Origin: a bacterium
GTDB taxonomy: Bacteria; Patescibacteriota; Minisyncoccia; UBA6257; GWB1-50-10
NCBI GenBank assembly: GCA_002686365.1
Contig: NZBZ01000004.1
Coordinates: 98,752 to 162,751 of the forward strand
Reading direction: 5' to 3'
Length of the DNA: 64,000 bases
Part shown: in pieces, positions 9,727-63,527 of the stretch
Numbering within the stretch: the stretch's first letter is position 1
How the letters are laid out: each line of letters starts with the position of its first letter
Notes under the pieces: model-generated
What the model was told of the DNA's origin: nothing
Databases searched by the model: none
The model's input: the letters and a program-made list of their open reading frames with translations, nothing else
Made by a program: the position numbers and the translations under genes

Positions 9727-9886
9727 TCTCTTTTTCTCGTTCGTAAGTCTCCACACATTAAAATTCTTTATTCGCTCATTACGGCAATTTGCCGCCCTGT
9801 TTCGCTTTGCTCCACGGGCACCCGGCAAATTGTCTATTCGCTCATAGAATTTAAGATGTGTTTCAACACACTCACTCTGAAAAAAA
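9727..9886 (+). repeat. Interspersed repeat family A, copy 1 (~160 bp); other copies at 48329-48485 and 63338-63495
   Basis: The copies are ~95% identical and each starts 1-9 nt after a stop codon (proS, uppS, and the hypothetical gene ending at 63336). The element carries a 12-bp inverted repeat, CGGCAATTTGCCG versus CGGCAAATTGCC, and an internal ATTCGCTCAT direct repeat. No ORF is conserved across the copies. Confidence 0.7.
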
Positions 9887-9996: not shown

Positions 9997-10037
9997 AAAA
10001 AAATACCCACCAAAGCGTGGGTGCTGGTGGGGTTGAG

Positions 10038-10385
10038 TCAGATGTGGAGGAGAATTGCTGCAGTACCGAGGAACGTGACGATGGCGCAGAAGATTGCGAG
10101 GCAGTTCATTGCTTGGGCAGTTCTCTTGCTCCAAGGTCTTCCTGCATCGTCGTCTATCTGTGCGAATATCCACACGTCCAGATTGAACAGGATGGTGCCG
10201 ATGGCGAACAAGAGTGCCGCCCCGATCCAGTTCGAGATCATGGCGTTTTCTTGTGCGCCTACCATGGCTCCTGAGAGACATATAAACGCTGTGATCAGAC
10301 TGACGAGGCCGGCAATGAAGGTTGCGTCGCGGCCACTGGTCTCGTGATTGCCACTTTTGTGTATTGCGGCAGCAGCGGCGGTCAT
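10038..10385 (-). CDS. Small membrane protein (115 aa); N-terminus paralogous to the 54-aa ORF at 10795-10959
   Basis: The N-terminus MTAAAAAIHKSGNHE... is followed by hydrophobic segments. The local GC content looks clearly higher than the genome background. Confidence 0.45.
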   Translation of the reverse strand: MTAAAAAIHKSGNHETSGRDATFIAGLVSLITAFICLSGAMVGAQENAMISNWIGAALLFAIGTILFNLDVWIFAQIDDDAGRPWSKRTAQAMNCLAIFCAIVTFLGTAAILLHI

Positions 10386-10433
10386 TGTGCGTTCCTTCTC
10401 GGTTAGGCGGCGGATGGCTTGTGTCCGTACGTA

Positions 10434-10751
10434 CTAGCCTCCGAAGATTAGGAAGTAGATGAGCCCTACGGCTCCGCAGAGCGCGTTGACGCCGAGGATC
10501 GTTGCAGCGTTGTAGAGTCTTCTGCGCATGTCGGGCTTTGGCTCGTTCTTTAGCCCTCCCATTCCTATCATCAGGATGAAAATGACACCGATGTAGAGCG
10601 TGAAGCCGGCGGAGTGATACCAGTGCCAGTTCGTGAGGCCTGGGGTTCCGCGTACGGCGAGTACGTTCGCCCAGAAGGAGAAGAATCCTGCAATGAGACC
10701 GAAGACAGTGTACGCGGAGAGCGAGAAGTTTCTTCGAAATGCGTCGGTCAT
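10434..10751 (-). CDS. Small membrane protein (105 aa)
   Basis: Three predicted TM segments (for example GLIAGFFSFWANVLAV and FTLYIGVIFILMIGMGGL). Same strand and same GC-rich block as its neighbours. Confidence 0.45.
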   Translation of the reverse strand: MTDAFRRNFSLSAYTVFGLIAGFFSFWANVLAVRGTPGLTNWHWYHSAGFTLYIGVIFILMIGMGGLKNEPKPDMRRRLYNAATILGVNALCGAVGLIYFLIFGG

Positions 10752-10794
10752 TGTCAGATCCCTTCGGGTTGCGGTGTGTGTGGGTGGTTTTGAG

Positions 10795-10959
10795 TTACGG
10801 GTTGAGGTAGATGTGGTAGAGAATTCCTGCAGTGCCTAGGATCGCGCTGCCCGCGTAGAAGGTTATGATGACTCCTGCGGTGATGTAGGTGATGAGGGCT
10901 ATGGCGCGATCGATGAGCCCATTGTTGCCACTCTTGTGTGTCGCTGCAGCAGCGGTCAT
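10795..10959 (-). CDS. Small membrane protein (54 aa), absent from the ORF track because it is under 60 aa
   Basis: Hand translation gives MTAAAATHKSGNNGLIDRAIALITYITAGVIITFYAGSAILGTAGILYHIYLNP. Its N-terminus is shared with the 115-aa ORF, and its start overlaps the upstream ORF's stop (ATGA). Confidence 0.4.
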   Translation of the reverse strand: MTAAAATHKSGNNGLIDRAIALITYITAGVIITFYAGSAILGTAGILYHIYLNP

Positions 10960-11153
10960 GGCGTGATCCTTTTAAGTGTTGTCGGACAGATGGGAACAAG
11001 TTTGAGTATTGTTATACGCAGCGCTATGGCGCCCACCATAACATCCAGTATGCTGTGAGAGTTGGCAACTCCGTATGCTGTGATCAGCAAGCTTGCGACA
11101 AAGAACAGCATTGTGAAGATGTATAGGGTGGACCACTTGACCTTTGTCTGCAT
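10956..11153 (-). CDS. Small membrane protein (65 aa), first gene of the - strand four-gene mini-operon
   Basis: MQTKVKWSTLYIFTMLFFVASLLITAYGVANSHSILDVMVGAIAL... is a hydrophobic helix. It is divergent from mreB. Confidence 0.35.
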   Translation of the reverse strand: MQTKVKWSTLYIFTMLFFVASLLITAYGVANSHSILDVMVGAIALRITILKLVPICPTTLKRITP

Positions 11154-11237
11154 CTACATGAAGTTCTTTGCCTCCAGGCCTTCAGTTTGGGTCGCTGAAA
11201 TTACTCTACATATTTTTGTTTTTAGTGTCAATTTTTA

Positions 11238-19609: not shown

Positions 19610-21226
19610 CTACTTTCTTTTCCAGAAGGATTGTTCTTTTTCTCTTAGAGCTTTTCTTATGTGAGTTTTTGCCATGGAAGTTTTTACAAATTTTAACCAT
19701 GATTCTGATGGTTTTTTCTTTTTCTGGCGCTGGATTTCTACAACATCGCCGGATTCCAGCTTGTGTTCTAATTGAACTATATTCCCGTTTACCTTTGCCC
19801 CAATACATTCATCCCCAACTTCAGAGTGGATGTGGTATGCAAAGTCAACTGGTGTTGCGTCATGAGGAAGATCTATAACATCTCCTTTTGGTGTTACTGC
19901 GAAGATTCGGTCCTTGAAGAAGTCTTTTAGAGAGTTTAGGAATTCTCCTCCTGATCCTCCGTGCGTTTCCTGCCATTCTTTTAACTGTTTTAGCCAAGCA
20001 GTCTCTTTTTTGTCCGCGAATACAGCCTTTCTTTTTTTGTATGATTTTTTTTCTTTTTCTTCTTCGTATGCCCAGTGTGCGGCCATTCCGTATTGGGCCT
20101 CTTCGTGCATCTTCTCTGTTCGTATTTGGAATTCTGCTATTTTGTTATCTAGACAGAAGACTGTGGTGTGGAGTGATTGGTAGCCGTTTGGTTTTGGTAG
20201 GGCGATATAGTCTTTTATTTTTCCCGGGAGTGGTTTCCATAGGCTGTGTATGATTCCGAGGACTTTATAACACTCCTCAACGTTTTTTACGATTATTCGC
20301 ATTGCGATAAGGTCGTGGATCTGTTCAAAGTTCATGTCGTACTTTTTGAGTTTTTTATAGATGCTTGAGAGACGTTTTGCTCTAAAGTTTATTCTTGTTG
20401 GCGTTAGATTATTTTCTTTCAGTTCTTTTTCTATAACCTTTCTTACTTTTTTTAAATACTTCTCTCTCTGCTCGAGCTTTTCCGAAACGTTTTTTTGTAG
20501 CCACTTGTAGTCTTTTGGAAAGAGATAGGGGAGACAGAGGTCTTCGAGCTCTCCTGCAACTGATGCCATTCCAAGGCGATAGGCAAGAGAGGCATAGATC
20601 TCATATGTTTCTAAAGCGATACGATTACGCTTTTCTTCTGGGAGGGCGTCCAGGGTTTTCATGTTGTGCAGGCGGTCAGCAAGTTTTATAAAGATGACGC
20701 GTATGTCATCACTTATTGCAAGGATCATTTTTTTAAAGTTTTCTCCTCGCTCTTTTTCCCGCTTTTTGTCTTCTTTTCTTTCTCGGAATTTGAAGTGTCC
20801 GAGTTTTGTTACTCCGTCTACGAGGCAGGCAATTTCTTCTCCGAATTCTTTTTTTATTTCACTTAGTGAGCTGTGCGTATCTTCTGTAGTGTCGTGGAGG
20901 ATACTGGCTGCAATTACATATGGTCCTAAGCCCCACTCACAGAGAGTTTTTGCTGTTTCAAATGGATGAATAAAATAGTCTTCTCCGGACTTTCGTTTTA
21001 GGCCTTCGTGGGCCATTTTTGAGAACTCGTAGGCGCGTTTAATAAGGTCTTTTTCCTGCTTTGAGAGCTTTCCGTTTTTTATTTTTAGTAGGTCGTTTAA
21101 GTCGTACATGATTTTTGGTGTATTTTGATGATACCTTCTTTTTCTTGACTTTTCTATGGGTCTTTTTATATACTTGGTAGGCATTAGCAGGGAAAGGTCG
21201 TCACTGCTAATAAGGCGCATATTCAC
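19610..21226 (-). CDS. rel: (p)ppGpp synthetase/hydrolase Rel/SpoT, short form (HD + synthetase + TGS, no ACT)
   Basis: HD motif ...ILHDTTEDT..., a RelA/SpoT synthetase core, and a C-terminal TGS (...FAVTPKGDVIDLPHDATPVDFAYHIHSEVGD...). 538 aa. Confidence 0.8.
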   Translation of the reverse strand: MNMRLISSDDLSLLMPTKYIKRPIEKSRKRRYHQNTPKIMYDLNDLLKIKNGKLSKQEKDLIKRAYEFSKMAHEGLKRKSGEDYFIHPFETAKTLCEWGLGPYVIAASILHDTTEDTHSSLSEIKKEFGEEIACLVDGVTKLGHFKFRERKEDKKREKERGENFKKMILAISDDIRVIFIKLADRLHNMKTLDALPEEKRNRIALETYEIYASLAYRLGMASVAGELEDLCLPYLFPKDYKWLQKNVSEKLEQREKYLKKVRKVIEKELKENNLTPTRINFRAKRLSSIYKKLKKYDMNFEQIHDLIAMRIIVKNVEECYKVLGIIHSLWKPLPGKIKDYIALPKPNGYQSLHTTVFCLDNKIAEFQIRTEKMHEEAQYGMAAHWAYEEEKEKKSYKKRKAVFADKKETAWLKQLKEWQETHGGSGGEFLNSLKDFFKDRIFAVTPKGDVIDLPHDATPVDFAYHIHSEVGDECIGAKVNGNIVQLEHKLESGDVVEIQRQKKKKPSESWLKFVKTSMAKTHIRKALREKEQSFWKRK

Positions 21227-23562: not shown

Positions 23563-23952
23563 CTAGGAGGTCGCCGAGAGTTCCGGGTCCTCGGGTTCGT
23601 CATCGAGGAGCGCCATGCTAGCTGCTTGCGGGTCGAAGTGCTCGGGGAGCTTAGTCGTGTCACTATAGCTTGCCCCGAGAAGTTTCGCTCCTGCAAGGTC
23701 TGTCTTGCTAAGATCCGCCCCCCGAAGATCTGCTCCGTGAAGATTCGCGTCTCGGAGATTCGTTTCGAGAAGAGTCGCTCCTCGGAGACTTGCTCCGCGG
23801 AAATCTGCGCCTTGTAGGTTTGCCATGCTTAGGCTTGCCATGCGTAGGTCTGCCCCTGGCGCGTGTACTCCGGGTCCGAGAGCGAGGACGACGGTAACAG
23901 TGAGCCTGCCGTTCTCTTGGTTCAGGGTCGTGATCGTGCGGGGCTTGTGCAT
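23563..23952 (-). CDS. Pentapeptide-repeat protein (129 aa) in a GC-rich islet
   Basis: Tandem A(D/N)LxG pentapeptides (ANLQGADFRGASLRGATLLETNLRDANLHGADLRGADLSKTDLAGAKL). GC content looks far above the genome background. Confidence 0.6.
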   Translation of the reverse strand: MHKPRTITTLNQENGRLTVTVVLALGPGVHAPGADLRMASLSMANLQGADFRGASLRGATLLETNLRDANLHGADLRGADLSKTDLAGAKLLGASYSDTTKLPEHFDPQAASMALLDDEPEDPELSATS

Positions 23953-26517: not shown

Positions 26518-26557
26518 ACGATGCAGTTATGTGACGGTCGTGCTATAATTGCATCGT
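26518..26557 (+). promoter_or_regulatory. Hairpin element E (arms ACGATGCA/TGCATCGT, inner ACGGTCGTG) overlapping a TATAAT (26544-26549) and the GTG start of the downstream gene
   Basis: It forms a direct repeat pair with 27085-27124 (~85% identical). The -10-like TATAAT is 6 nt before the start codon, so the transcript is likely leaderless. Confidence 0.4.
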
Positions 26558-27056
26558 GGGTGTTGCAGATGACATTTTAACAATACTTTTTAGCTATTCC
26601 GCTGGGTATAAGCGTCTGCGTCAATTGACGTATGGGGGCTCTCCTTATCAATCGTCAGATTCTCGAAGGAAGATTAGAGATGAAACTCTTCGTTCTACAC
26701 TTTCTCGAATGAGGAAGAATAAGCTTGTGTCCCGCAAGGGGGATGAATGGGTTATCACCGCGAAAGGCAAGGCTTTTTATCGTCGTCGTAGGGAAAAGCG
26801 GAAACTTGAAGAGATTTCTGATGAATTGCGAAGTAGAAAGAAGTCTGTGATTATTGCGTTTGATGTTCCAGAAGAAAGGCGTGTTATTCGCGCATGGTTG
26901 CGGAGAGAATTAGTATTTTTAGGATTTGAGCCTATTCAGAAGAGTGTTTGGTTTGGTCCGGGTCCTTTGCCCGAGATATTTATTCAAGAATTGGGTGATA
27001 GAGATCTTTTGGGCTGTTTAAAATTTTTTAGGGCGACTGAGGATGATGTTGTTTAA
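26556..27056 (+). CDS. Winged-helix + Cas2/PaaX-like domain protein (166 aa), paralog 1
   Basis: The N-terminal wHTH region is ...TLSRMRKNKLVSRKGDEWVITAKGKAF.... The C-terminus VIIAFDVPEERRVIRAWLRRELVFLGFEPIQKSVWFGP matches the Cas2 N-terminal strand pattern (hhhYDI...RR...L...G.R.Q.SVF) and the PaaX middle domain. 57% identity-level paralog at 50061-50546. Confidence 0.5.
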   Translation: MGVADDILTILFSYSAGYKRLRQLTYGGSPYQSSDSRRKIRDETLRSTLSRMRKNKLVSRKGDEWVITAKGKAFYRRRREKRKLEEISDELRSRKKSVIIAFDVPEERRVIRAWLRRELVFLGFEPIQKSVWFGPGPLPEIFIQELGDRDLLGCLKFFRATEDDVV

Positions 27057-27084: not shown

Positions 27085-27124
27085 ACGATGCACTTTTAGC
27101 ACGACCGTGCTATAGGTGCATCGT
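27085..27124 (+). repeat. Hairpin element E, downstream copy (ACGATGCAC...ACGACCGTG...GTGCATCGT)
   Basis: A 9-bp outer stem plus a 6-bp inner stem. Direct repeat of 26518-26557. Confidence 0.4.
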
Positions 27125-27699
27125 TGGTTGGTTTTTGATTGATAGATTAATGCTTGAGGGTTTTGGGGATTTGCAGATTCGCGGATTTGCGGATTTATCT
27201 CATTGTTTGTATATTGTTTGTACGTTCTTTGACCTATGGAATGGAGAAAATGCGCTATGTCGTTAAGAAAAGGCGTCAGGCGGCAGGTTCGCAAGAGGCG
27301 CGCTTCTAAGGCGCGCAGAGAGGCTCTGGTTAATGAGCAGTTCTTAAGTCTAGTCGGTCGAATTCCAGGAGAAGGAGAATTGGATCGTCTTGCTGCTCAG
27401 ATATAATTCGGAGATGCTCAGCCCTTGTCTGAGGCATTGGGCTTTGTGGGCGCCTATGTGGTGGCAACTGATGATCGTGATGTCTGGGTAAGTGTCCGCT
27501 TTAATAGCGCCACCAGGCAGATCTTCGGTGTGTCGCGGCCGCCCTCTAATGAGCATCTTGACAGCTTGCACAATCTCAGTGCCTGTGGGGAGTCTTCTGG
27601 TTCTGATTGGGTTTCGTCGTAGACGTCCCGCATGCCTTTATGGATGCGGGACGTTGTCATGTTTAGATAATGCTTATAACTTGAGAAGTTTGGATTTTT

Positions 27700-27733
27700 C
27701 CATGTATCAGTGTACTAGTACACTGATACATGG
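27700..27733. repeat. 34-bp perfect palindrome CCATGTATCAGTGTAC-TA-GTACACTGATACATGG
   Basis: Reverse-complement identity checked base by base. Located ~110 bp upstream of tRNA-Ser, and preceded by an 11-bp-stem hairpin at 27634-27667 (ACGTCCCGCAT...ATGCGGGACGT). Confidence 0.6.
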
Positions 27734-27841
27734 AGTGGGCGGAGCGGACTGCGGAGAGGACTTGAGAAATTTGGGGGTTTGGGTATTGTAAGTGTATTGA
27801 AGGTCGTTTTTTCCGCCAATTGGCGGATTCGGCGTACCAAT

Positions 27842-27926
27842 GGAGGGATGCCGGAGTGGTCAAACGGAACGGCTTGGAAAGCCGTGGCCCTAACAGGCCC
27901 CGTGGGTTCGAATCCCACTCCCTCCG
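27842..27926 (+). tRNA. tRNA-Ser (anticodon GGA), long variable arm, no encoded CCA
   Basis: Acceptor stem GGAGGGA/TCCCTCC. Anticodon stem-loop ACGGC-TTGGAAA-GCCGT. Long variable arm. T-arm GTGGG-TTCGAAT-CCCAC. Discriminator G. Confidence 0.85.
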
Positions 27927-28014
27927 CAGAATGCTTCTCCAAGAGCCCCCATGGGGCTTATGGAGAAGCATAGTGTTGATGAAGTAGCGGGATTCGAAGG
28001 GTGTTTTTAGAAAG

Positions 28015-28046
28015 CAAACTGCTTTGCTTTCTAAAAAACCCGGGCT
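28015..28046. other. Perfect 14-bp-stem hairpin TTTTAGAAAGCAAA-CTGC-TTTGCTTTCTAAAA
   Basis: Perfect inverted repeat with a 4-nt loop, lying between the tRNA and repeat C. A/T-rich ends suggest a terminator or attachment-site-like element. Confidence 0.4.
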
Positions 28047-28077
28047 CCGAAGGAGGAGCGGAGCATGTGCCAGAGGC

Positions 28078-28200
28078 ACCGCGGAGCGACGGGTGAGGAG
28101 GAATTCCTGCCTACCGGCAGGCAGGTCACTCTTACATTCATTTAGCCATTCAACAATTCCATGGAATTGTTGAATGGGCGGGGGAGCGGGAATCCCACCT
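28078..28200 (+). repeat. Repeat family C, copy 1 (X module GAGCGACGGGTGAGGAGGAAT, 30-bp palindrome CATTCAACAATTCCATGGAATTGTTGAATG, Y module GGGCGGGGGAGCGGGAATCCCACCT)
   Basis: Near-identical copy at 31478-31565. Partial Y-X copy at 49937-49990, and a related hairpin at 33926-33948. Confidence 0.6.
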
Positions 28201-31477: not shown

Positions 31478-31565
31478 GGTGAGGAGGAATCCCACTCCTA
31501 CATTCATTTAGTCATTCAACAATTCCATGGAATTGTTGAATGGGCGGGTGAGCGGGAATCCCACC
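31478..31565 (+). repeat. Repeat family C, copy 2 (same X, palindrome and Y modules)
   Basis: ...GGAGCGACGGGTGAGGAGGAATCCCACTCCTACATTCATTTAGTCATTCAACAATTCCATGGAATTGTTGAATGGGCGGGTGAGCGGGAATCCCACCT... Confidence 0.6.
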
Positions 31566-31594
31566 TCCTCTAGCTAGCCTTAGGTGGGTTTTAT

Positions 31595-48328: not shown

Positions 48329-48485
48329 ATCCTTTTTCTCGTTCGTAAGTCTCCACACATTAAAATTCTTTATTTGCTCATTACGGCAATTTGCCGCCCT
48401 GTTTCGCTTTGCTCCACGGGCACCCGGCAAATTGCCTATTCGCTCATAGAATTTAAGATGTGTTTCAACACACTCACTCTGAAAA
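48329..48485 (+). repeat. Interspersed repeat family A, copy 2
   Basis: Starts 2 nt after the uppS TAA; ~95% identical to copies 1 and 3. Confidence 0.7.
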
Positions 48486-48619
48486 ATAATTTTATTTTTC
48501 TATGGGAAGTCGTTCTAGGTGCTTTTTACAAAGTAACTTTTTTAAGTCGTCTCAAGAAAGAAAAGATGAATTGTGAGTAATAGAATTTTTCCTCATTCTG
48601 TAGTGGGATGGAGGAGGTC

Positions 48620-49855: not shown

Positions 49856-49865
49856 CTAAGGTATC

Positions 49866-49894
49866 AAAAGGAGCTCTCATGAGCTCCTTTTGAG
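49866..49894 (+). terminator. Terminator hairpin AAGGAGCTC-TCAT-GAGCTCCTT plus TTTT
   Basis: 9-bp stem followed by a U-run, directly after tRNA-Pro. Confidence 0.5.
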
Positions 49895-50019
49895 ACTCTA
49901 TGTGGTCGGGAATCGAAGGGAACCCCGACATTTATCGTCGGGGTGGGGGAGCGGGATTCCCGGCCTCCTATTGAGCGACGTGAGATTCCCCGGCCCGACA
50001 GCGATTTTTATAGATTTTT

Positions 50020-50054
50020 ATAACATTTCCTACGATCGTAGGAAATGTTATAAT
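50020..50054 (+). promoter_or_regulatory. 32-bp perfect palindrome ATAACATTTCCTACGA|TCGTAGGAAATGTTAT overlapping a TATAAT (50049-50054) 6 nt before the start codon: candidate autoregulated, leaderless promoter-operator
   Basis: Perfect 16-bp arms with the same ACGATCGT core as hairpins 26518, 27085 and 50556. Confidence 0.45.
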
Positions 50055-50060
50055 TTGTGT

Positions 50061-50546
50061 ATGGCTTTTAATAATGATTTGCTTACAGTTCTTTTTCGCA
50101 ACACGATGAGCTATAAACTGCTTAGGGAGTTTGCGCATAAACGTCGTCAAAAAGAAGTAAAGGATTCGGTTTTGCGAACAACTCTCTATCGTTTACGAAA
50201 ACAGGGCTTGGTTGTTCAAAAAGATGGAAAGTGGAGCATAACAAATCTAGGTAAGGACTTTTTGAAACGTAAGGAAAAGGCAAAGATTTGGGAGCATGGT
50301 TTGTACGACAAGTCTTTACGTGAGCGTGACAAGAATATGATTATTGCTTTTGATATTCCAGAATCTGAAAGGAGAAAACGGGATTGGTTAAGAGTTGAGC
50401 TGCGTCTTCTTGGCTTTGATCCTATTCAGAAGAGTGTTTGGTTTGGTCCATATCCGTTGCCTCGAGAGTTTATTCAGTCTTTGGGTAAATTGGAGCTTAT
50501 TACGTACTTGAAGTTTTTTCGTGCTCGGAAAGATGAGGTTGTTTGA
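50061..50546 (+). CDS. Winged-helix + Cas2/PaaX-like domain protein (161 aa), paralog 2
   Basis: MAFNNDLLTVLF...TLYRLRKQGLVVQKDGKWSITNLGKDF...MIIAFDIPESERRKRDWLRVELRLLGFDPIQKSVWFGPYPLP. It aligns end to end with 26556-27056. The ATG at 50061 is preferred; the track's 49890 start runs through repeat sequence. Confidence 0.5.
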   Translation: MAFNNDLLTVLFRNTMSYKLLREFAHKRRQKEVKDSVLRTTLYRLRKQGLVVQKDGKWSITNLGKDFLKRKEKAKIWEHGLYDKSLRERDKNMIIAFDIPESERRKRDWLRVELRLLGFDPIQKSVWFGPYPLPREFIQSLGKLELITYLKFFRARKDEVV

Positions 50547-50555
50547 CTTTTTGTA

Positions 50556-50583
50556 AACAAACCTTACGATCGTGAGGTTTGTT
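50556..50583 (+). repeat. Hairpin element E (AACAAACCT-TACGATCGTG-AGGTTTGTT) downstream of paralog 2
   Basis: Direct repeat of the upstream palindrome, with the ACGATCGT core. Confidence 0.4.
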
Positions 50584-50621: not shown

Positions 50622-51005
50622 ATGAATAAAAAAGATTCGAAGACAATACTTTTAGTCGAGGATGATCAGATTTTATTGAAGACTGTTACGGAGGAGCTAG
50701 AAGAGCATGGGTATAATGTCCTTTAGGCTATAGATGGTGAGGTTGGTTTGAAGTCCGCATTTGAAGCTCATCCGGATTTGGTGATGCTTGATGTAAAGCT
50801 TCCTGGTATGGATGGAATGGAGGTGATGAAAAATATCCGTGAGGATTCGTGGGGGAAGAATGTTCCTCTTATTATTTTTACTGTTATTCATCCTGATGAT
50901 GAGATGGTAAAAATGATAGAGAAGTATGAGCCTTCGCATTATCTTGTAAAGTCTGAGTGGAGTTTGGAGAAGGTTGTTGAAAAGGTAAAGGATGTTTTGA
51001 AATAA
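50622..51005 (+). pseudogene. CheY-like single-domain response regulator (REC) interrupted by an in-frame TAG at about 50724-50726
   Basis: MNKKDSKTILLVEDDQILLKTVTEELEEHGYNVL*AIDGEVGLKSAFEAHPDLVMLDVKLPGMDGMEV... The stop falls between V-L and A-x-DG of the conserved receiver core. The track reports only the C-terminal 85 aa (50748-51005, TTG start). The minus-strand track ORF 50697-50939 is consistent with a single TAG and no frameshift. By eye I could not exclude an additional 1-nt indel near 50700. Confidence 0.45.
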
Positions 51006-63337: not shown

Positions 63338-63495
63338 CTCCTTTTTCTCGTTCGTAAGTCTCCACACATTAAAATTCTTTATTCACTCATTACGGCAATT
63401 TGCCGCCCTGTTTCGCTTTGCTTCACGGGCACCCGGCAAATTGCCTATTCGCTCATAGAATTTAAGATGTGCTCCAACACACTCACTCTGAAAAA
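63338..63495 (+). repeat. Interspersed repeat family A, copy 3
   Basis: Starts 2 nt after the TAA at 63334-63336. Confidence 0.7.
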
Positions 63496-63527
63496 GGAGT
63501 TTATTCTTATGGGTTTATGGGAGGTCT

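What the first reader, a model, noticed from the sequence alone, without database searches (positions are those of the whole stretch)
27634..27733. 34-bp perfect palindrome and strong hairpins in a 1.1-kb non-coding stretch upstream of tRNA-Ser
CCATGTATCAGTGTACTAGTACACTGATACATGG at 27700-27733 is a perfect palindrome with 17-bp arms. It is preceded by an 11-bp-stem hairpin at 27634-27667 and a GC-rich ~250-nt segment at 27400-27660 with protein-like fragments in both strands, possibly a gene remnant. It is followed downstream of the tRNA by a 14-bp-stem perfect hairpin at 28015-28046. Perfect palindromes of this length next to a tRNA gene are typical of recombination or attachment sites, or of high-affinity dimeric regulator sites. 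A possible 49-55-codon basic ORF at about 27236-27403 (MSLRKGVRRQVRKRRASKARREAL...) also lies here.
Basis: seen in the sequence. Interest (0 to 1): 0.5.

Follow-up and report, generated by a model that had tools for sequence, protein, structure and literature searches.

The report
Palindromic protein-binding site before tRNA genes
The 36-bp perfect palindrome is real, and a second copy in the same genome also sits between a terminator and a tRNA gene, so it is most likely a binding site for a dimeric regulator of tRNA promoters in a small marine CPR bacterium, not an attachment site.

Summary
The palindrome exists and is slightly longer than reported: 27699-27734, 36 bp, perfect, no spacer. 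The genome is a marine CPR bacterium whose nearest relatives are Candidatus Jorgensenbacteria.

In 82.9 kb of this genome the 30-bp core ATGTATCAGTGTACTAGTACRCTGATACAT occurs twice. One copy lies 108 bp upstream of tRNA-Ser(GGA). The other lies 44 kb away, 49 bp upstream of tRNA-Gln(UUG). Both follow a terminator-like hairpin and precede a sigma-70-like promoter. Only the palindrome is shared between the two loci.

Related CPR genomes use 30-46-bp zero-spacer palindromes around their PaaX-like genes (winged helix-turn-helix plus Cas2-like domain). Such palindromes are 14.5 times denser in those flanks than elsewhere, and the upstream and downstream copies at one gene match. The target palindrome lacks their CGATCG centre and spacing, and matches neither PaaX-like gene in the window.

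Best reading: an orphan operator for an unidentified dimeric DNA-binding protein acting at tRNA promoters (confidence about 0.45). The attachment-site reading is not supported. The signs of an island lie downstream of the tRNA instead: synteny with the relative ends there, GC drops from 0.43 to 0.33, and a 74-nt direct repeat brackets two genes. No close relative exists in the databases, so conservation could not be tested.

The parts
27699..27734 (.). Target: perfect 36-bp zero-spacer palindrome TCCATGTATCAGTGTACT|AGTACACTGATACATGGA. The 30-bp core shared with the second genomic copy is 27702-27731.
   Evidence: The second copy (29/30 identical) is at L095 20186-20215, which is window-equivalent 71794.
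27623..27654 (+). GC-rich terminator-like hairpin directly after the stop codon of the 65-codon orphan ORF. It has no clean T-run (TTGTCATGTTT follows).
   Evidence: DNA fold -14.9 kcal/mol, z -6.3. In the second locus the same position holds a canonical intrinsic terminator.
27679..27693 (+). Direct repeat 1, ACTTGAGAAGTTTGG. It contains a -35-like TTGAGA and lies immediately left of the palindrome.
   Evidence: 14/15 identical to 27760-27774, 81 bp apart
27760..27789 (+). Direct repeat 2, ACTTGAGAAATTTGG, plus a sigma-70-like promoter TTGAGA-16-TATTGT (27762-27789). This is the presumed tRNA-Ser promoter.
   Evidence: A consensus match only.
27842..27927 (+). tRNA-Ser(GGA)
   Evidence: 57.6 bits
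27257..27406 (+). 49-aa basic orphan ORF with GGAG 9 nt upstream of the ATG. It has no homologue.
27425..27622 (+). 65-codon orphan ORF (TTG start) in the GC-rich segment. It has no homologue. Two independently assembled contigs end at 27438 and another at 27404.
26556..27056 (+). PaaX-like gene 1 (wHTH plus Cas2-like PaaX_M domain). It is context for the target, not shown to bind it.
   Evidence: PF20803, 9e-14; model pLDDT 83 with E. coli PaaX 8a39 as best fold match
26518..26557 (.). Upstream cognate box of PaaX-like gene 1 (ACGATGCA...TGCATCGT, centre GACGGTCG). It overlaps TATAAT (26544-26549) and the GTG start codon.
   Evidence: (D18)
27085..27124 (.). Downstream cognate box of PaaX-like gene 1 (19-nt arms, 2 mismatches, centre CGACCG)
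27931..27971 (+). Hairpin directly after tRNA-Ser
28004..28037 (.). 15-bp-stem hairpin flanked by T5 and A5, resembling a bidirectional terminator.
28127..28200 (+). 74-nt direct repeat, copy 1. It contains the perfect 32-bp palindrome CCATTCAACAATTCCATGGAATTGTTGAATGG (28146-28177) and a GGGGGAGCGGGAATCCCACC motif.
   Evidence: (D6)
31493..31566 (+). 74-nt direct repeat, copy 2 (96% identical), with the palindrome at 31513-31542. Together with copy 1 it brackets the low-GC PPDK-like gene and the 275-aa gene.

Best explanation
The palindrome is a DNA-level, high-affinity binding site (an operator) for a dimeric sequence-specific DNA-binding protein. It acts on tRNA gene promoters.

Shown:
- It is one of at least two copies of a 30-bp dyad in this genome.
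- Each copy lies between a terminator-type hairpin that ends the upstream gene and a tRNA gene. A sigma-70-like promoter match precedes each tRNA, but that is a consensus match only.
- Sequence identity between the two loci is confined to the dyad.

Inferred:
- The bound protein activates or represses the adjacent tRNA promoter. The dyad centres lie about 50 bp and about 80 bp upstream of the predicted transcription starts, a difference of about three helical turns.
- Alternatively, the bound protein blocks read-through from the upstream, compositionally foreign genes.
- The binder is unidentified. A further paralogue of the wHTH-Cas2-like (PaaX-like) family is the leading candidate on prior grounds, but this dyad is not a canonical box of that family.
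For: 1. The dyad is perfect, 36 bp and has no spacer. The central bases are symmetric too, which an RNA hairpin loop would not require.
2. The second copy is at L095 20186-20215, 29/30 identical and the same in two independent assemblies. There are only two copies in 82,944 bp, and no half-sites elsewhere.
3. The second copy lies 49 bp upstream of tRNA-Gln(UUG) and just after a tool-called intrinsic terminator, 20149-20171 plus a T-run. In the window the order is the same: hairpin 27623-27654, dyad, TTGAGA-16-TATTGT, tRNA-Ser.
4. blastn and tblastx between the two loci find only the dyad.
5. tRNA-Leu in the same genome has a textbook TTGATA-17-TATTAT promoter, and the genome encodes an RpoD-type sigma factor. 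Sigma-70-type promoter reading is therefore reasonable.
6. Precedent in the clade comes from 64 dereplicated loci carrying PaaX-like genes. Zero-spacer palindromes of 30-56 bp occur within 130 bp upstream in 29 of 61 loci and downstream in 35 of 61. Their density there is 3.6 per kb against 0.25 per kb elsewhere. Upstream and downstream boxes at one gene match in 9.5 of 11 outer bases, against 4.9 of 11 between loci. The upstream boxes overlap a -10 element 6-9 nt before the start codon.
7. The E. coli PaaX operator also spans 39 bp, as TGATTC-N27-GAATCA (PMC9493321).
Against: - No cognate regulator was identified.
- The dyad differs from all canonical PaaX-type boxes. Its centre is ACTAGT, whereas 60 of 66 boxes have CG[AG][TC]CG. 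Its TATCA motif sits 8-12 nt from the centre, not 11-15.
- It resembles neither set of boxes belonging to the two PaaX-like genes in the window.
- There are only two copies, and only 2 of the 4 tRNA genes seen carry one.
- The tRNA-Gln promoter is a weak consensus match that the scanning tool did not call.
- The Jorgensenbacteria relative with conserved synteny has no counterpart.
- No relative closer than 57% protein identity exists, so conservation or covariation could not be tested.
- Both copies sit next to GC-rich orphan genes, which also fits an origin as imported DNA.
Confidence: 0.45

Rival explanations
1. The dyad is a small mobile or imported palindromic element, or the end-scar of inserted foreign DNA. 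On this view it arrived with, or marks the boundary of, the GC-rich orphan genes lying just upstream of both tRNAs, and it has no regulatory role of its own.
For: - The window copy is bracketed by a 15-nt direct repeat, 14/15 identical (27679-27693 and 27760-27774), resembling a target-site duplication.
- Both copies lie immediately downstream of orphan genes of GC 0.52-0.54 in a background of 0.38-0.43.
- About 490 bp, comprising the ORFs, hairpin and dyad, is extra relative to the Jorgensenbacteria relative.
- Two independent assemblies end at exactly 27438 and a third at 27404. No repeat in the sequence examined explains this, which suggests strain-level variation there.
Against: - The second copy has no flanking direct repeat.
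- Nothing beyond about 33-37 bp is shared between the loci.
- No transposase, RAYT or integrase appears in the gene tables, which cover most of the 83 kb.
- The sequence is absent from viral contigs, phage records and plasmids.
- The direct repeat contains a -35-like hexamer, so a tandem promoter duplication explains it equally well.
Confidence: 0.2
2. The dyad works as an RNA hairpin: a 16-bp stem that stops, stabilises or directs processing (for example by RNase III) of read-through transcripts between the upstream gene and the tRNA.
For: - The fold is strong: -16 kcal/mol as DNA with z -8.3, and the 336-nt region has z -5.1 as RNA.
- The single difference in the second copy leaves a G-U-compatible pair on the + strand (my reading).
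- In related genomes many downstream PaaX-type boxes are followed by T-runs and probably double as terminators.
Against: - No U-tract follows the hairpin on either strand.
- A separate terminator already precedes it in both loci.
- The predicted promoters lie downstream of it.
- An RNA hairpin does not need 29/30 sequence identity between copies or a symmetric loop.
- Any transition in a Watson-Crick pair gives G-U on one strand half the time, so that point is weak.
Confidence: 0.15
3. The dyad is an attachment or recombination site of an integrative element targeting the tRNA.
For: It lies next to a tRNA gene that marks a synteny break and a GC drop.
Against: - It lies 5' of the tRNA and has no similarity to the tRNA.
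- The second copy is at a different tRNA 44 kb away, not at the far end of the low-GC block.
- No integrase is listed in the gene tables for this region or for the 10-kb extensions.
- The repeats that do bracket the low-GC genes are a different sequence (28127-28200 and 31493-31566).
Confidence: 0.04
4. The dyad is an unconventional centromere (parS-like) site for the ParB encoded just upstream of the window.
For: - No canonical parS (up to 3 mismatches) occurs in 83 kb around parAB.
- The outer arms TGTATCAG and CTGATACA match the parS half-site TGTTTCAC in 6 of 8 positions (my comparison).
Against: The half-sites are separated by 14 bp, whereas in parS they abut. A location upstream of tRNAs is not expected for parS. 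No experimental or comparative support was found.
Confidence: 0.03

Closest known systems
PaaX operator of E. coli (TGATTC-N27-GAATCA; autorepression at Px)
   Same: It is a long (about 39 bp) inverted-repeat site bound by a dimeric wHTH protein at promoters (PMC9493321). The window encodes two truncated PaaX-like proteins (PF20803; best fold match PDB 8a39).
   Different: The target is a fully symmetric 30-36-bp dyad, not two hexamers with an unrelated spacer. No phenylacetate pathway genes are present. The CPR proteins lack the C-terminal ligand-binding domain of PaaX (166 aa against about 305-aa). Binding of any of them to this dyad has not been shown.
CPR 'PaaX-type boxes' defined here: palindromes flanking wHTH-Cas2-like genes, with centre ACGATCGT
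   Same: Both are zero-spacer, perfect or near-perfect palindromes of 30-46 bp lying in intergenic DNA next to promoters. The TATCA outer motif also occurs in several boxes (for example L006, L064, L019).
   Different: The centre is ACTAGT instead of CG[AG][TC]CG. The outer motif is 3 nt closer to the centre on each side. The target lies 643 bp from the nearest PaaX-like gene, which has its own cognate boxes.
Upstream activator sites of stable-RNA promoters (FIS sites and UP elements of E. coli rrn and tRNA promoters; established knowledge)
   Same: It lies upstream of the -35 element of tRNA promoters, with the two sites offset by about three helical turns.
   Different: FIS sites are degenerate 15-bp motifs, not 30-bp perfect dyads. 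No fis gene was seen. The promoter positions here are predictions only.
REP/BIME elements and their RAYT transposases
   Same: These are short palindromic intergenic repeats. The pattern of 'a gene flanked by its own cognate palindromes' seen for the PaaX-like genes resembles RAYT genes flanked by REPs.
   Different: REPs are imperfect palindromes and highly repeated, and RAYTs are HUH enzymes. No such gene was seen here, there are only two copies of the target, and PaaX-like gene 1 is syntenic between distant relatives, so it is not mobile.
tRNA-gene attachment sites of integrative elements
   Same: The dyad is next to a tRNA that marks a synteny and composition break.
   Different: Attachment cores are direct repeats of the tRNA 3' end that flank the element. 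The target is a palindrome 5' of the tRNA and unrelated to it.

Membership tests
CPR PaaX-type box (operator of wHTH-Cas2-like proteins) | Zero-spacer dyad of about 30-46 bp | tested here: met
   36 bp, perfect
CPR PaaX-type box (operator of wHTH-Cas2-like proteins) | Centre CG[AG][TC]CG (usually ACGATCGT) | tested here: not met
   The centre is ACTAGT. 60 of 66 flanking boxes have the CG-type centre.
CPR PaaX-type box (operator of wHTH-Cas2-like proteins) | Lies within about 130 bp of the start or stop of a PaaX_M gene and matches that gene's other box | tested here: not met
   It lies 643 bp after the stop of gene 1. That gene's boxes at 26518-26557 and 27085-27124 are unrelated in sequence.
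CPR PaaX-type box (operator of wHTH-Cas2-like proteins) | Outer specificity motif 11-15 nt from the dyad centre | tested here: not met
   TATCA lies at 8-12 nt from the centre (for the boxes, for the target).
Transcription-factor operator (generic) | Dyad symmetry, recurrence at promoters, and conservation limited to the site | tested here: met
   Two copies, each upstream of a tRNA promoter-like site. Only the dyad is shared between loci.
Transcription-factor operator (generic) | A protein that binds it | not testable with these tools
   Needs EMSA, DAP-seq or ChIP.
Intrinsic (Rho-independent) terminator | GC-rich stem followed by a U-tract | tested here: not met
   The stem is 41% GC. AGTGGGCGG follows on the + strand and AAAAATCC on the - strand. 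The scan did not call it.
tRNA attachment site (attL/attR) | Core identical to the tRNA 3' end, repeated directly at the far end of the element, with an integrase nearby | tested here: not met
   No similarity to tRNA-Ser. The other copy is at tRNA-Gln 44 kb away. No integrase or recombinase family appears in the gene tables, which cover most of the 83 kb.
REP/MITE-type mobile palindrome | Many copies, terminal or target-site repeats at each copy, and an associated transposase | tested here: inconclusive
   Two copies in 83 kb. A 15-nt direct repeat flanks one copy only. No transposase was seen.
parS centromere | 16-bp TGTTNCACGTGAAACA | tested here: not met
   The similar half-sites are separated by 14 bp. 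No canonical parS was found in 83 kb.
Known RNA family (Rfam 15) | Covariance-model match | tested here: not met
   Only the tRNAs pass threshold. Permissive hits over the dyad are chance matches to miRNA hairpin models.

The most novel reading that the evidence does not exclude
This reduced-genome CPR bacterium controls a subset of its tRNA promoters through a dedicated 30-bp dyad and an as-yet unknown dimeric regulator. That regulator may be a divergent member of the wHTH-Cas2-like ('mini-PaaX') family. The family itself forms a system not found in the literature searched: each paralogue is flanked on both sides by its own cognate 30-46-bp palindrome, with a shared CGATCG centre and a paralogue-specific outer motif.
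Probability: 0.2. Interest if true: 0.6.

Novelty: new member of a known kind. Interest (0 to 1): 0.4.

Why it matters
CPR/Patescibacteria have tiny genomes and almost nothing is known about their transcriptional regulation. A sequence-specific site shared by two tRNA promoters would be a concrete, testable entry point into stable-RNA control in an uncultivated lineage.

The side result may matter more. A family of truncated PaaX-like proteins shows paralogue-specific operators on both sides of each gene. This gives ready-made protein-DNA pairs for specificity studies, and it suggests that this family is a significant group of regulators in Paceibacteria-type genomes. The literature searches found no paper linking PaaX to CPR or Patescibacteria.

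For the scan itself, the result warns that 'a palindrome next to a tRNA' does not imply an attachment site.

Tried and rejected
- **Known RNA.** Rfam at gathering and permissive thresholds found only the tRNAs.
- **Palindrome half-site near the wHTH genes.** It is absent there and in the other 89 fetched loci outside this genome.
- **Conservation in relatives.**
  - The nearest syntenic relative is a Jorgensenbacteria genome (HtpX 67%, AA-kinase 60%, PaaX-like 57% identity, followed by tRNA-Ser).
  - It has no counterpart of the dyad or of the small ORFs.
  - The next-best homologue contig is not syntenic.
  - No protein above 57% identity exists in 5.8 billion sequences.
- **The small ORFs and other frames as genes or gene remnants.** The 49-aa and 65-aa ORFs find only themselves in the protein database. 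Pfam, NCBIfam and PHROGs give no match for any ORF in the segment.
- **PaaX-like genes are generally tRNA-linked.** Rejected: only 9 tRNAs in 60 loci.
- **Phage or plasmid origin.** The dyad, the 28146 palindrome and the PaaX-like family are absent from viral contigs, and the dyad region is absent from the phage and plasmid records.
- **The two dyad loci share a larger duplicated module.** Rejected: only 33-37 bp are shared.
- **Canonical parS.** None found.
- **A repeat causing the contig ends at 27404-27438.** None in the 83 kb examined.
- **Integron attC.** Considered and dropped, because the site is a perfect palindrome, lacks the R'/R'' core sites, and no intI is present.

Full report
**Observation**

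The sequence is as described. The palindrome at 27700-27733 is perfect and extends by one pair on each side to 36 bp (27699-27734). A perfect palindrome of this length is not expected by chance in 64 kb, and its half-site is unique in the window at up to 3 mismatches. tRNA-Ser(GGA) is at 27842-27927.

One is 27623-27654, directly after the stop codon of a 65-codon ORF. The other is 28004-28037, a 15-bp stem flanked by T5 and A5. The segment 27300-27600 has GC 0.52-0.54 against a window mean near 0.43.

Long hairpins are very unevenly distributed. Only 10 in the window have at least 13 matched pairs per arm. Five of them lie in 27085-28177 and three in 49861-50583.

**Source and neighbours**

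Identical or near-identical contigs come from Tara Oceans marine metagenomes, including a 137-kb scaffold. NCBI holds the gene as CL629_01505 of an unclassified 'bacterium'.

The gene order upstream is LemA, HtpX, an amino-acid-kinase-family protein, and then a 166-aa protein with a winged helix-turn-helix and a PaaX_M (Cas2-like) domain. The closest syntenic genome is Candidatus Jorgensenbacteria RIFCSPLOWO2_01_FULL_45_25b. It has HtpX at 67%, the kinase at 60% and the PaaX-like protein at 57% identity, followed by tRNA-Ser(GGA). The organism is therefore a CPR/Patescibacteria bacterium. An AlphaFold model of the PaaX-like protein (pLDDT 83) has E. coli PaaX (8a39) and Rv0674 as best fold matches, followed by PadR-type wHTH and Cas2 structures.

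**A second copy of the palindrome**

Two look-ups extended the same genome by 10 kb at each end of the window, giving 82,944 bp in all. The 30-bp core ATGTATCAGTGTACTAGTACRCTGATACAT occurs exactly twice. One copy is the target. The other is at L095 20186-20215, 29/30 identical, 44 kb downstream, and the same in two independent assemblies.

That second copy lies 49 bp upstream of tRNA-Gln(UUG). It also lies 14 bp after a canonical intrinsic terminator, GGACACGCATGCATTGCGTGTCC plus a T-run, which ends a 262-aa orphan gene.

Both loci therefore share the order: terminator-type hairpin, dyad, promoter-like site, tRNA.
- In the window the promoter-like site is TTGAGA-16-TATTGT at 27762-27789.
- At tRNA-Gln I read TTGAAG-17-TAAAAA preceded by TG. 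This is weak and was not called by the tool.
- tRNA-Leu in the same genome has TTGATA-17-TATTAT, and an RpoD-type sigma factor is encoded.

With these promoters the dyad centres lie near -80 and -50, about three helical turns apart. This is inference from two cases. blastn and tblastx find nothing shared between the loci other than the dyad.

By my estimate, 120-bp zones upstream of the four tRNAs make up about 0.6% of the 83 kb, or roughly 5% of its intergenic DNA. The second copy falling in such a zone is therefore suggestive, not conclusive.

**Context: palindromes around PaaX-like genes**

The window has a second PaaX-like gene at 50061-50546, just after tRNA-Pro. It is preceded by a perfect 36-bp palindrome (50018-50053) and followed by a 28-bp one (50556-50583). 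Gene 1 is likewise flanked by related dyads at 26518-26557 and 27085-27124.

I collected 83 loci carrying relatives of this protein from genomes and metagenomes, 64 after dereplication. The results were:
- Palindromes with at least 12 matched pairs per arm and at most 2 mismatches lie within 130 bp upstream of the gene in 29 of 61 loci, and within 130 bp downstream in 35 of 61.
- Their density in those flanks is 3.6 per kb, against 0.25 per kb in the rest of the loci.
- 60 of 66 have the centre CG[AG][TC]CG, usually ACGATCGT.
- Upstream and downstream boxes at one gene share 9.5 of 11 outer bases, against 4.9 of 11 between loci.
- The right arm of the upstream box commonly contains TAATAT or TATAAT 6-9 nt before the start codon. 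The box therefore covers the core promoter of a leaderless mRNA.

This is the pattern expected of autoregulating dimeric repressors with paralogue-specific operators. The E. coli PaaX operator also spans 39 bp (PMC9493321). I found no paper linking PaaX to CPR or Patescibacteria. The family is absent from viral contigs and is not preferentially next to tRNAs. Gene 1 is syntenic across distant relatives, so these are resident regulators and not mobile units.

**Where the target fits**

The target shares the style: zero spacer, 30-36 bp, a TATCA-type outer motif, and an intergenic position beside a promoter. It fails the features that define the PaaX-type box. Its centre is ACTAGT. Its outer motif is 3 nt closer to the centre on each side. 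It is 643 bp from gene 1, whose own boxes are unrelated to it.

Other zero-spacer palindromes with non-CG centres occur in intergenic DNA of related genomes. One PaaX-like locus, L063, has boxes centred on CAATTG. A divergent paralogue encoded elsewhere in the genome therefore remains a reasonable candidate binder, but nothing shows this.

**Best explanation and rivals**

I favour a DNA-level operator for an unidentified dimeric protein acting on tRNA promoters (confidence 0.45).

The strongest rival is that the dyad came in with foreign DNA or is a small mobile palindrome (0.2).
- For: the window copy is bracketed by a 15-nt direct repeat. Both copies sit just after GC-rich orphan genes. The roughly 490 bp holding the ORFs, hairpin and dyad is absent from the relative. 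Two independent assemblies end at exactly 27438 and a third at 27404, with no repeat to explain it.
- Against: the second copy has no flanking repeat, nothing else is shared between the loci, and no transposase or integrase is listed in the gene tables.

An RNA-hairpin role (0.15) is weakened by three points: no U-tract follows, a separate terminator precedes each copy, and the centre is symmetric. The attachment-site reading (0.04) and a parS-like reading (0.03) fail their defining features.

**Downstream of the tRNA**

The island idea has some support, but from features other than the target palindrome.
- Synteny with the relative ends at tRNA-Ser.
- GC falls to 0.29-0.38 from about 28200 to about 33400.
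- A 74-nt direct repeat (96% identical; 28127-28200 and 31493-31566), containing a perfect 30-32-bp palindrome, brackets the PPDK-like gene and a 275-aa orphan gene.
- The motif GGGNGAGSRGGAWTCCC occurs five times, against 0.17 expected by chance. All five copies lie in these junctions or after tRNA-Pro.
- Read on the minus strand, the motif resembles a tRNA 3' end, GATTCCCGCTCCCCCGCCCA.
- No integrase is present. Each repeat also sits just upstream of a gene start, so a shared promoter-operator cassette is an equally good reading.

**Limits**

Only 83 kb of the genome could be read. No close relative exists in the databases. All promoter assignments are consensus matches. No binding protein was identified.

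Noticed in passing
window 26518-26557, 27085-27124, 50018-50053, 50556-50583; loci L005-L008 and L014-L092: wHTH-Cas2-like (PaaX_M) genes of CPR bacteria are flanked on both sides by cognate zero-spacer palindromes of 30-56 bp. The centre is a shared ACGATCGT and the outer motif is specific to each paralogue. The upstream box overlaps the -10 element of a leaderless promoter. Enrichment in the flanks is 14.5-fold. The literature searches found no paper linking PaaX to CPR or Patescibacteria.
   Followed up: yes
window 28127-28200 and 31493-31566: A 74-nt direct repeat (96% identical), containing the perfect palindrome CCATTCAACAATTCCATGGAATTGTTGAATGG, brackets the low-GC PPDK-like gene and a 275-aa orphan gene. 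The palindrome shares the 11-mer ATTCAACAATT with the PaaX-flanking boxes of metagenome locus L063.
   Followed up: partly
window 28091, 28180, 31477, 31546, 49945; also 27986-28000 and 49911-49925: The motif GGGNGAGSRGGAWTCCC occurs five times against 0.17 expected by chance, only in the junctions after tRNA-Ser, at the low-GC block, and after tRNA-Pro. Read on the minus strand it resembles a tRNA 3' end (GATTCCCGCTCCCCCGCCCA) followed by a hairpin. These may be relics of attachment sites or of tRNA genes.
   Followed up: partly
window ~9730-9885, ~48332-48487, ~63341-63496: A repeat of about 160 nt occurs in three copies, 92-94% identical. Each copy starts right after a stop codon and is followed by GGGAGGTCTGNTGGTAGC and a terminator hairpin. 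It is internally structured and has no Rfam match. It could be a MITE or a small RNA.
   Followed up: partly
window 50622-50997: A stand-alone response-regulator receiver gene after PaaX-like gene 2 is interrupted by a single in-frame TAG at 50724-50726. Both parts match PF00072 (profile positions 1-25 and 30-110). It may be a pseudogene, a recoded codon or a sequencing error.
   Followed up: partly
window 23563-23952 (-) and 10000-11160: Two GC-rich patches (0.55-0.59) sit in a 0.43 background. One holds a 129-aa pentapeptide-repeat ORF (PF00805, 4.5e-17). The other is a block of small minus-strand ORFs that look like membrane proteins. Both are likely acquired DNA.
   Followed up: partly
window 27404-27438: Two independently assembled contigs end at exactly 27438 and another at 27404. 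No repeat in the 83 kb examined explains this. It suggests a strain-variable junction at the start of the GC-rich segment.
   Followed up: partly
L093 7680-9916 and the whole 83 kb: parA and parB lie just upstream of the window start, yet no canonical parS (TGTTTCACGTGAAACA, up to 3 mismatches) occurs in 83 kb.
   Followed up: partly
L022 2774-2799 and L035 6300-6337: The palindrome GGTGCTAYAGTTAACTRTAGCACC is conserved in two different CPR metagenome loci. It may be another operator type or a conserved hairpin.
   Followed up: no
L095 16248-16285: The same genome has a perfect 38-bp GC-rich palindrome, TCTCACTGCCCCCATTCGCGCGAATGGGGGCAGTGAGA, between two small ORFs.
   Followed up: no
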